DNA of 64,000 nt from Styela clava (Eukaryota), in NCBI RefSeq assembly GCF_964204865.1, contig NC_135253.1:16430001-16494000 (forward strand). The letters run 5' to 3'. Positions 23,676-24,470 of this stretch are shown here, piece by piece. The number at the start of each line of letters is the position of its first letter. Position 1 is the first letter of the stretch. The notes below the pieces were generated by a model. The model was not told the DNA's origin. It did no database searches and saw only the letters and a list, made by a program, of their open reading frames with translations. The translations under genes and the position numbers were made by a program.

Positions 23676-24470
23676 TTATGACCATCCGATCGGCTCGTCA
23701 CCCATTATTAGGCCGAAGGTGTCGCAGAGTCCTGTACTTTTGCACCAACTACAAATATTTCCGCCTGAAACAAAATGGTTACATTCACATAGATTCATAA
23801 AACAGAATGATTTGCATAGCCAGAAATATTTCGCTGTAATAAATTTATTCATCGATGTCTCACGTGGCATATCGGAATCATAACAAAAAATGTTGAAAAC
23901 GCATTTATTTGCGGATGTACGTTTTTATAAGCTCGTAACAAGTACGAAAGATGAAGTTGAGCAGAGTGAAATTTGGCAACAGATAATGCCCAACCAATCA
24001 ATCCCACCTAAATTATAGCTCCTTATCTCACGATGTATGCTTGTTGGGACCTTTTACAGACTAAAGCTATAAAAATACCAGATAAAACGTATCTATGTCT
24101 ATATCAAAATTCATTAAAACTTACTTTGACCCGCTAGTACTCCGCAACGATTTGAACAATATTTTGCCAAGCAGTATTTTTGCATTTGTTTCAAGAAAGC
24201 AGATGGAGGACCTGTTGAAAGTTTGTAATGTATATATAAATATTGATGTTTGAGACATACAAGAATGAGCTCAATGGGTTCGCTACAATTATATATATTA
24301 TTCCACAATAAAACAAATGTATATCAGAACGATCCGTATGTACATTTCGTGTCCAATAAAATACATTTTATGATTCCAATCCACTTACTTGATCTTTTCA
24401 CGATGCCAGAATTCACCATTGATAGACTTAGGACCAAAACAAAGAAGATTCCGCAATAAAAACCTTTCAT
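23676..24470 (-). CDS. Three-exon gene for an 85-aa secreted cysteine-rich peptide precursor (signal peptide, KR, six-Cys peptide)
   Basis: Exons 24389-24470, 24125-24211, 23676-23764; both introns phase 1 with gtaagt donors and ttcag/aacag acceptors. Product MKGFYCGIFFVLVLSLSMVNSGIVKRSSPPSAFLKQMQKYCLAKYCSNRCGVLAGQSGNICSWCKSTGLCDTFGLIMGDEPIGWS. AAAATG start context, TATA-like motif ~24574-24580, AATAAA on minus at ~23559-23564. Confidence 0.8.

What the first reader, a model, noticed from the sequence alone, without database searches (positions are those of the whole stretch)
23676..24470. Hidden gene for a secreted six-cysteine peptide (candidate antimicrobial peptide, toxin or hormone)
Seen: three short exons, not recognisable as one gene in the ORF track, splice cleanly into signal peptide, GIVKR dibasic site and mature SSPPSAFLKQMQKYCLAKYCSNRCGVLAGQSGNICSWCKSTGLCDTFGLIMGDEPIGWS. 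The pattern is C-x4-C-x3-C-x10-C-x2-C-x5-C with a cationic core and an acidic tail. From memory, the six-Cys layout with a CxxC and a C-D end loosely resembles the ascidian turgencin antimicrobial peptides, but the spacing differs and I recognise no named family. Inference: a lineage-specific disulfide-stapled helical-hairpin peptide.
Basis: partly seen in the sequence, partly recalled or inferred. Interest (0 to 1): 0.75.

Follow-up and report, generated by a model that had tools for sequence, protein, structure and literature searches.

The report
Unannotated sea-squirt six-cysteine peptide gene
A sea squirt has an overlooked three-exon gene, spliced in public sequence assemblies, for a small six-cysteine peptide with no detectable relatives, which is likely secreted, likely trimmed like the animal's known antibiotic peptides, and probably serves in defence.

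Summary
The gene is real. Three minus-strand exons join at GT..AG sites into an 85-residue frame. Both joints stand in contigs of public runs: intron 1 in 4 of 7 and intron 2 in 5 of 7 RNA-like runs laid, from three studies. A genome-wide control run is unspliced. The genome carries clavanin and styelin genes, so it is a Styela sea squirt. The gene appears single-copy and unannotated; exon-wise searches found no credible relative. It starts at a hydrophobic-Gly-Asp junction, which 5 of 5 clavanin and styelin genes examined have where their amidated peptides end. The likely product is an amidated 51-56-residue cationic peptide with three disulfides. It fails turgencin membership on spacing and motifs. 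Defence is the likeliest role (about 55%); weak amphipathicity and single copy leave a signalling role open. The scan noted six-cysteine peptide genes in another sea squirt, but no look-alike of this one.

The parts
24389..24470 (-). Coding part of exon 1: predicted signal peptide (residues 1-21), five-residue pro-segment ending in Lys-Arg, first mature residue
   Evidence: Translation and hydropathy; spliced contigs cover it in X1, X2, X3, X6
24212..24388 (-). Intron 1, 177 nt, GT..AG, phase 1; holds a ~40-nt repeat at 24321-24361
   Evidence: Joint skipping 177 nt in 4 of 7 RNA-like runs
24125..24211 (-). Exon 2: cationic segment predicted helical, with Cys41, Cys46, Cys50
   Evidence: single-sequence model is one helix, mean pLDDT 75
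23765..24124 (-). Intron 2, 360 nt, GT..AG, phase 1; retained in contigs of X5 and X8
   Evidence: Joint skipping 360 nt in 5 of 7 RNA-like runs
23676..23764 (-). Coding part of exon 3: Cys61, Cys64, Cys70, hydrophobic end, Gly78-Asp79 junction, 7-residue acidic tail, stop
   Evidence: model has helices broken at Gly68, mean pLDDT 62; Gly-Asp comparison
23537..23675 (-). 3' untranslated region with AATAAA at 23565-23560
   Evidence: Sequence; contigs stop at 23537 (X1) and 23543 (X2, X7), a weak hint only
24471..24548 (-). 5' untranslated region (approximate)
   Evidence: Contigs begin at 24535, 24542, 24548 (X1, X6, X3); X2 runs beyond 24800
24574..24689 (-). Likely promoter: TATA-like box at 24580 and three TGACG motifs at 24689, 24646, 24617
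   Evidence: 63 TGACG sites in the window, clusters of three or more within 100 nt at 4 places; function untested

Best explanation
This spliced, single-copy gene of a Styela sea squirt encodes an 85-residue precursor that is likely secreted and likely processed into an amidated, positively charged peptide predicted to be helical and held by three disulfides, which probably acts in host defence. Shown: gene structure, splicing, six Cys, a Gly-Asp junction before a short acidic tail. Inferred steps: (1) the signal peptide is removed after residue 21; (2) five further residues may be removed at Lys-Arg, or kept; (3) the precursor is cut before Asp79 and Gly78 becomes the amide of Met77, the route of clavanins and styelins; net charge rises from +2 to +5 (+7 if the five residues stay); (4) the exon-2 helix packs against the exon-3 helices as a nested ladder (Cys50-61, 46-64, 41-70), the C3-C4/C2-C5/C1-C6 order of turgencins; (5) the released peptide binds anionic microbial surfaces with the lysine-rich helix and inserts its hydrophobic C-terminal end.
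For: Splice joints in three studies and none in the DNA-like control. Clavanin genes (2 matches) and styelin genes (8 exon matches at 3 genes) lie in the same genome; 5 of 5 show hydrophobic-Gly-Asp exactly where 23- and 32-residue mature peptides end, lengths and amidation as tabulated in PMC10608444 (passages). PMC7387483 (passages) states that styelins and clavanins are cut N-terminal of D and DD and that ascidian precursors run signal, cationic, anionic. The same junction after the last Cys with a K/R-free tail arises in 1.1% of 100,000 shuffles, any Gly-Asp there in 7.0% (chosen after the fact). All five Lys/Arg of residues 27-85 lie upstream of it. Both halves are predicted helical; Cys46/50 and Cys61/64 fall on one helix face each (40 and 60 degrees). 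Cationic, amidated, six-Cys antimicrobial peptides exist in another ascidian (PMC7024374). Five coding variants spare all Cys and the Gly-Asp; the intron varies more (19/360 against 5/258, Fisher p 0.036, haplotypes not matched).
Against: No activity, tissue or peptide data. Amphipathicity is unremarkable: best 11-residue hydrophobic moment 0.47, reached by 2299 of 5000 shuffles. Charge density is modest, and one variant removes a lysine (K44N in X7). The acidic tail is 7 residues with two acids, against 27 residues in the clavanin genes. The gene appears single-copy, whereas clavanins and styelins are small clusters. A Lys-Arg site is typical of prohormones. No kappa-B-like site above background. 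The models are of 30-residue halves without alignments (pTM 0.35, 0.27), and short peptides are easily predicted helical.
Confidence: 0.55

Rival explanations
1. It is a secreted signalling peptide (hormone or cytokine-like ligand): a convertase cuts at Lys-Arg and the disulfide-held peptide binds a receptor.
For: Dibasic site right after the signal peptide; single copy; weak amphipathicity; coding sequence less variable than the intron; three CRE-like TGACG motifs before a TATA box.
Against: No Gly-Lys/Arg amidation signal; the Gly-Asp junction is the one of this animal's defence peptides. No Pfam family matches any exon. Conserved hormones usually have findable relatives; none was found, although only halves were searched. 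Three of five coding variants change a residue. TGACG clusters occur at three other places in the window.
Confidence: 0.22
2. It is a deterrent or cytotoxic peptide aimed at eukaryotes (predators, fouling larvae, parasites), working through membranes or ion channels.
For: Small three-disulfide scaffolds are common among animal toxins (general knowledge). Turgencin A inhibited mammalian cell lines, and styelins and clavaspirin are haemolytic (PMC11767717, PMC10608444; passages).
Against: No match to any toxin family, solved structure or Atlas cluster with either half. No gene expansion. Ascidians have no venom apparatus (general knowledge).
Confidence: 0.1
3. It is a non-defence extracellular mini-protein: a metal-binding or redox module like one vanabin hairpin, or a tunic, mucus or gamete-surface component, kept at full length.
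For: A CxxC and evenly spaced Cys on predicted helices recall vanabins (recalled; also raised for another gene in note e1-9060167). Full-length mature net charge is only +2.
Against: No Pfam hit on any exon; only six Cys; no His; pro-peptide-like ends on both sides argue for a processed peptide.
Confidence: 0.13

Closest known systems
Turgencins A and B (Synoicum turgens; PMC7024374)
   Same: Ascidian, six non-adjacent Cys in two groups of three around a Gly-containing loop, CxxC in the second group, cationic, C-terminal amide (shown for turgencins, predicted here), helix-loop-helix (shown loosely for turgencin B, predicted here).
   Different: Spacing 4,3,10,2,5 against 3,4,8,2,3 and 3,4,7,2,3; the shared turgencin motifs CXMAC and KKXGG are absent; 51-59 residues against 35-36; turgencin genes and precursors were not obtained in that paper, so gene structure cannot be compared.
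Clavanins and styelins (Styela clava; Pfam PF05452, PF17562)
   Same: Same genome; precursor order signal, cationic peptide, hydrophobic-Gly-Asp, acidic tail (5 of 5 genes examined).
   Different: Those peptides are linear and Cys-free, their tails are long, their genes clustered; no exon of this gene matches either family.
St-CRP-1 and -2 (Synoicum turgens; PMC13208793)
   Same: Ascidian, six Cys, C-terminal amide, weakly antibacterial.
   Different: 18-19 residues, neutral, CC-C-C-CC pattern with adjacent Cys.
Mussel myticins/mytilins and other cysteine-stabilised alpha-beta defensins
   Same: Signal, Cys-rich mature region, C-terminal extension (PMC11767717); a Cx3C on a predicted helix.
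   Different: No CxC motif here, which that fold needs (recalled); second half predicted helical, not a beta hairpin.

Membership tests
Turgencins | Six non-adjacent cysteines in the mature peptide | tested here: met
   PMC7024374 passage
Turgencins | Cys spacing 3,4,7-8,2,3 | tested here: not met
   4,3,10,2,5 here; only the x2 is shared
Turgencins | Motifs CXMAC and KKXGG | tested here: not met
   Motifs; neither is in the translation
Turgencins | Disulfide order C1-C6, C2-C5, C3-C4 on a helix-loop-helix | tested here: inconclusive
   Halves predicted helical and inner Cys pairs face-compatible; the whole peptide was not modelled
Turgencins | Cationic, C-terminally amidated | tested here: inconclusive
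   pI 8.3 for residues 27-85, net +5 if trimmed; amide only inferred
Turgencins | Antimicrobial activity | not testable with these tools
   Needs an assay
Clavanin / styelin families | Match to PF05452 or PF17562 | tested here: not met
   0 Pfam families for each of the three exons at E up to 10
Clavanin / styelin families | Linear cysteine-free helical mature peptide | tested here: not met
   Six Cys
Clavanin / styelin families | Hydrophobic-Gly-Asp junction followed by an acidic extension | tested here: met
   Met77-Gly78-Asp79, tail net -2; 5 of 5 reference genes; tail much shorter
St-CRPs | CC-C-C-CC pattern, 18-19 residues, neutral | tested here: not met
Cysteine-stabilised alpha-beta defensins (myticin-like) | Cx3C helix motif paired with a CxC strand motif (feature recalled) | tested here: not met
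   Cx3C present, CxC absent; no Pfam or PDB match
Vanabins | Long repeated Cys array and Pfam vanabin match (feature recalled) | tested here: not met
   Six Cys only; no Pfam hit on exons
Convertase-processed peptide hormones | Dibasic cleavage site | tested here: met
   Lys25-Arg26; whether it is cut is unknown
Convertase-processed peptide hormones | Gly-Lys/Arg amidation signal or match to a hormone family | tested here: not met
   Gly78 is followed by Asp; no Pfam match

The most novel reading that the evidence does not exclude
The peptide founds a new structural family of chordate signalling peptides: a three-disulfide helical ligand, released by a hormone-type cut at its front and the defence-peptide-type Gly-Asp amidation at its end, from a single inducible gene, acting on a receptor as an immune or endocrine messenger in the closest invertebrate relatives of vertebrates.
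Probability: 0.15. Interest if true: 0.7.

Novelty: new variant of a known kind. Interest (0 to 1): 0.4.

Why it matters
The antibiotic peptides listed for Styela clava in the reviews I read (passages of PMC10608444, PMC11767717, PMC10817596) are all linear. A three-disulfide peptide trimmed by the same route would add a new, probably protease-stable scaffold to that arsenal. It would also give a gene and precursor for a turgencin-like layout, for which the describing paper obtained none. It shows that annotation misses short spliced peptide genes, and it yields exact masses to look for. The general kind (small secreted Cys-rich invertebrate peptide) is common, so the surprise is moderate until an activity is shown.

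Tried and rejected
Paralogue search in the own genome: each exon as protein found only itself or one more match at E 0.8, which is the antisense strand of an unrelated reading frame without CxxC or acceptor (L003). DNA of exon 1 plus promoter found only itself. Cys-codon patterns gave 26 matches against 24 in the control and 34 against 27; I screened 26 of 26 and 30 of 34 for a partner exon. The one candidate, L045, had a signal-like exon and a CxxC exon, but its middle piece is a high-copy repeat (1659 candidates, 150 scored, most with stops) and its last piece had no homologue: rejected. These genome searches use a loose first look, so distant paralogues can be missed. Protein collection: nothing with exon 3 or exon 2 in their open frames, while the neighbouring WD40 protein is held. 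Search of 1.84 billion representatives with exon 3 gave 4 hits; all are long bacterial surface proteins with Ig-like or DUF11 repeats whose weak stretches add up: rejected. PDB by sequence: none for exon 2, one at E 0.67 for exon 3. Foldseek with the exon-3 model: none. ESM Atlas: no usable hit for either half, which shows neither absence nor novelty. Complex prediction of the two halves was not available. No RNA holder is on record. Kappa-B-like promoter sites are at background level. A second acceptor inside intron 2 would give another six-Cys product, but no run shows that joint. Four short motifs of the peptide occur in 0 papers; topic searches listed no title on it; supplements were not searched.

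Full report
Observation. They join into 85 codons and a stop, across two phase-1 GTAAG..CAG introns of 177 and 360 nt. The product has a hydrophobic N-terminus, Lys-Arg at 25-26, and six further Cys spaced 4,3,10,2,5. A scan for such chains finds only this start in the window and one start in 1 of 60 shuffles (an earlier, stricter run missed the gene itself, so the filter was tuned).

Expression. Thirteen public runs of one organism hold the stretch; none is on record as RNA. I laid 8 of them. The intron-1 joint is in 4 of 7 RNA-like runs (X1, X2, X3, X6) and the intron-2 joint in 5 of 7 (plus X7), from three studies. X5 and X8 show no joint and hold contigs through intron 2. X10 covers the region evenly and unspliced. 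Contigs start 25-45 nt behind a TATA-like box in three runs (one runs further) and stop about 20 nt behind an AATAAA in three runs; contigs give only a weak hint of ends. Five coding variants were listed: two silent, K44N, T72S, E80D; none touches a Cys or the Gly-Asp.

Organism and copy number. The genome (G000, 377 Mb) holds two clavanin-family and three styelin-family genes above the Pfam cut-offs. These families are described from Styela clava (PMC10608444, passages), so this is a Styela sea squirt, most likely that species. Each exon finds only itself in the genome, apart from one chance antisense match. Cys-pattern scans are at control level and their one candidate is built on a repeat. 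The gene seems single-copy, within the limits of a search that scores few candidates.

Relatives. Neither Cys exon is in the 5.8-billion-cluster collection among proteins of matching length, though a neighbouring protein is: the gene is likely unannotated. Pfam, PDB, Foldseek and the Atlas gave nothing usable. The four hits among 1.84 billion representatives are bacterial repeat proteins. Only 27-30-residue halves were searched, so distant orthologues could be missed. Four short motifs occur in no held paper.

Processing. An earlier scan note (e1-9576109) pointed to a Gly-Asp trimming site in this animal's peptides, and I checked it. In 5 of 5 clavanin and styelin genes read from this genome, a hydrophobic residue, Gly and Asp stand where the 23- and 32-residue mature peptides end. 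PMC10608444 lists these lengths with C-terminal amides, and PMC7387483 states that styelins and clavanins are cut before D and DD (the original cDNA papers were not seen). The window peptide has Met77-Gly78-Asp79 after its last Cys, followed by a 7-residue tail of net charge -2. Shuffles give this layout in 1.1% of cases (a test chosen after the fact). I infer a cut before Asp79 and amidation of Met77. The front end is open: Lys-Arg may be cut (51 residues, net +5) or not (56 residues, net +7). The tail is far shorter than that of clavanin (27 residues), which weakens the analogy.

Fold. Single-sequence models give one helix for exon 2 (pLDDT 75) and two short helices broken at Gly68 for exon 3 (pLDDT 62). 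On ideal helices Cys46/50 and Cys61/64 each share a face, while Cys41 and Cys70 lie off it. This fits a hairpin closed by Cys50-61 and Cys46-64, with a kinked third helix bringing Cys70 to Cys41. This is inference; the whole peptide was not modelled and the pairing is untested.

Function. Defence is the best reading (0.55): cationic core, hydrophobic end, the trimming site of the animal's own antibiotics, and a precedent in turgencins. Against it stand an ordinary hydrophobic moment (2299 of 5000 shuffles reach it), modest charge, single copy, and no kappa-B site above background. A signalling peptide (0.22) would fit the dibasic site, the single copy and three CRE-like motifs, but not the Gly-Asp end. 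A deterrent toxin (0.10) and a metal-binding or structural role (0.13) have little positive support.

Comparison. It works, by inference, like a turgencin trimmed like a styelin. It is not a turgencin: one of five spacings is shared and both family motifs are absent. It is not a styelin, clavanin, St-CRP, alpha-beta defensin or vanabin by the features tested. Papers seen: PMC7024374 (passages and the end of section 2.3), PMC13208793 (first sixth of the text and passages), PMC10608444, PMC9966394, PMC11767717, PMC7387483, PMC10817596 (passages); others as search listings only. Supplementary gene tables of Styela transcriptome papers were not searched and might list the transcript. The scan has notes on six-Cys peptide genes in other sea squirts, which I could not compare; look-ups by sequence found no look-alike.

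Verdict. A real, spliced, apparently unannotated gene for a six-cysteine peptide with a Cys layout that matched no family tested; probably a host-defence peptide. New variant of a known kind; interest 0.4.

Noticed in passing
window 24120 and 23765-24124: Contigs that run through intron 2 appear only in X5 and X8 (study P2) and share a divergent haplotype; in X8 it carries a change at the +5 position of the intron-2 donor. It may be a splice-weakening allele; X7 of the same study is spliced.
   Followed up: partly
window 24007-23925 (-): A second acceptor inside intron 2 opens a 26-codon frame with three Cys that would give an 83-residue six-Cys product. No joint supports it and it varies like intron; probably chance.
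   Followed up: partly
window 22584-13931 (-): An F-box gene with an FBXO41-type zinc finger starts about 1 kb downstream of the peptide gene on the same strand. Three RNA-like runs carry an in-frame 6-base insertion behind 22435 that the window and X10 lack.
   Followed up: no
window 24321-24361 and 25738-25783: Short repeats that many unrelated contigs share; the first lies inside intron 1.
   Followed up: no
window 9157-12588 (+): Intronless 1143-residue WD40 protein, held in the protein collection as a one-member cluster.
   Followed up: no
window 54360-54617 (+) and 59314-60345 (+): Exons of an RMD1-3 family gene and of a B-box (TRIM-like) gene.
   Followed up: no
L045:1136-1796: Signal-peptide-like exon beside a high-copy repeat that reads as a Cys-rich exon; it may be a real secreted-protein gene with a repeat in an intron, or chance.
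   Followed up: partly
L032-L041: Two clavanin-family genes on C1 and three styelin-family genes on C10; the styelin mature peptide is split by an intron into two 16-residue parts in L038.
   Followed up: partly
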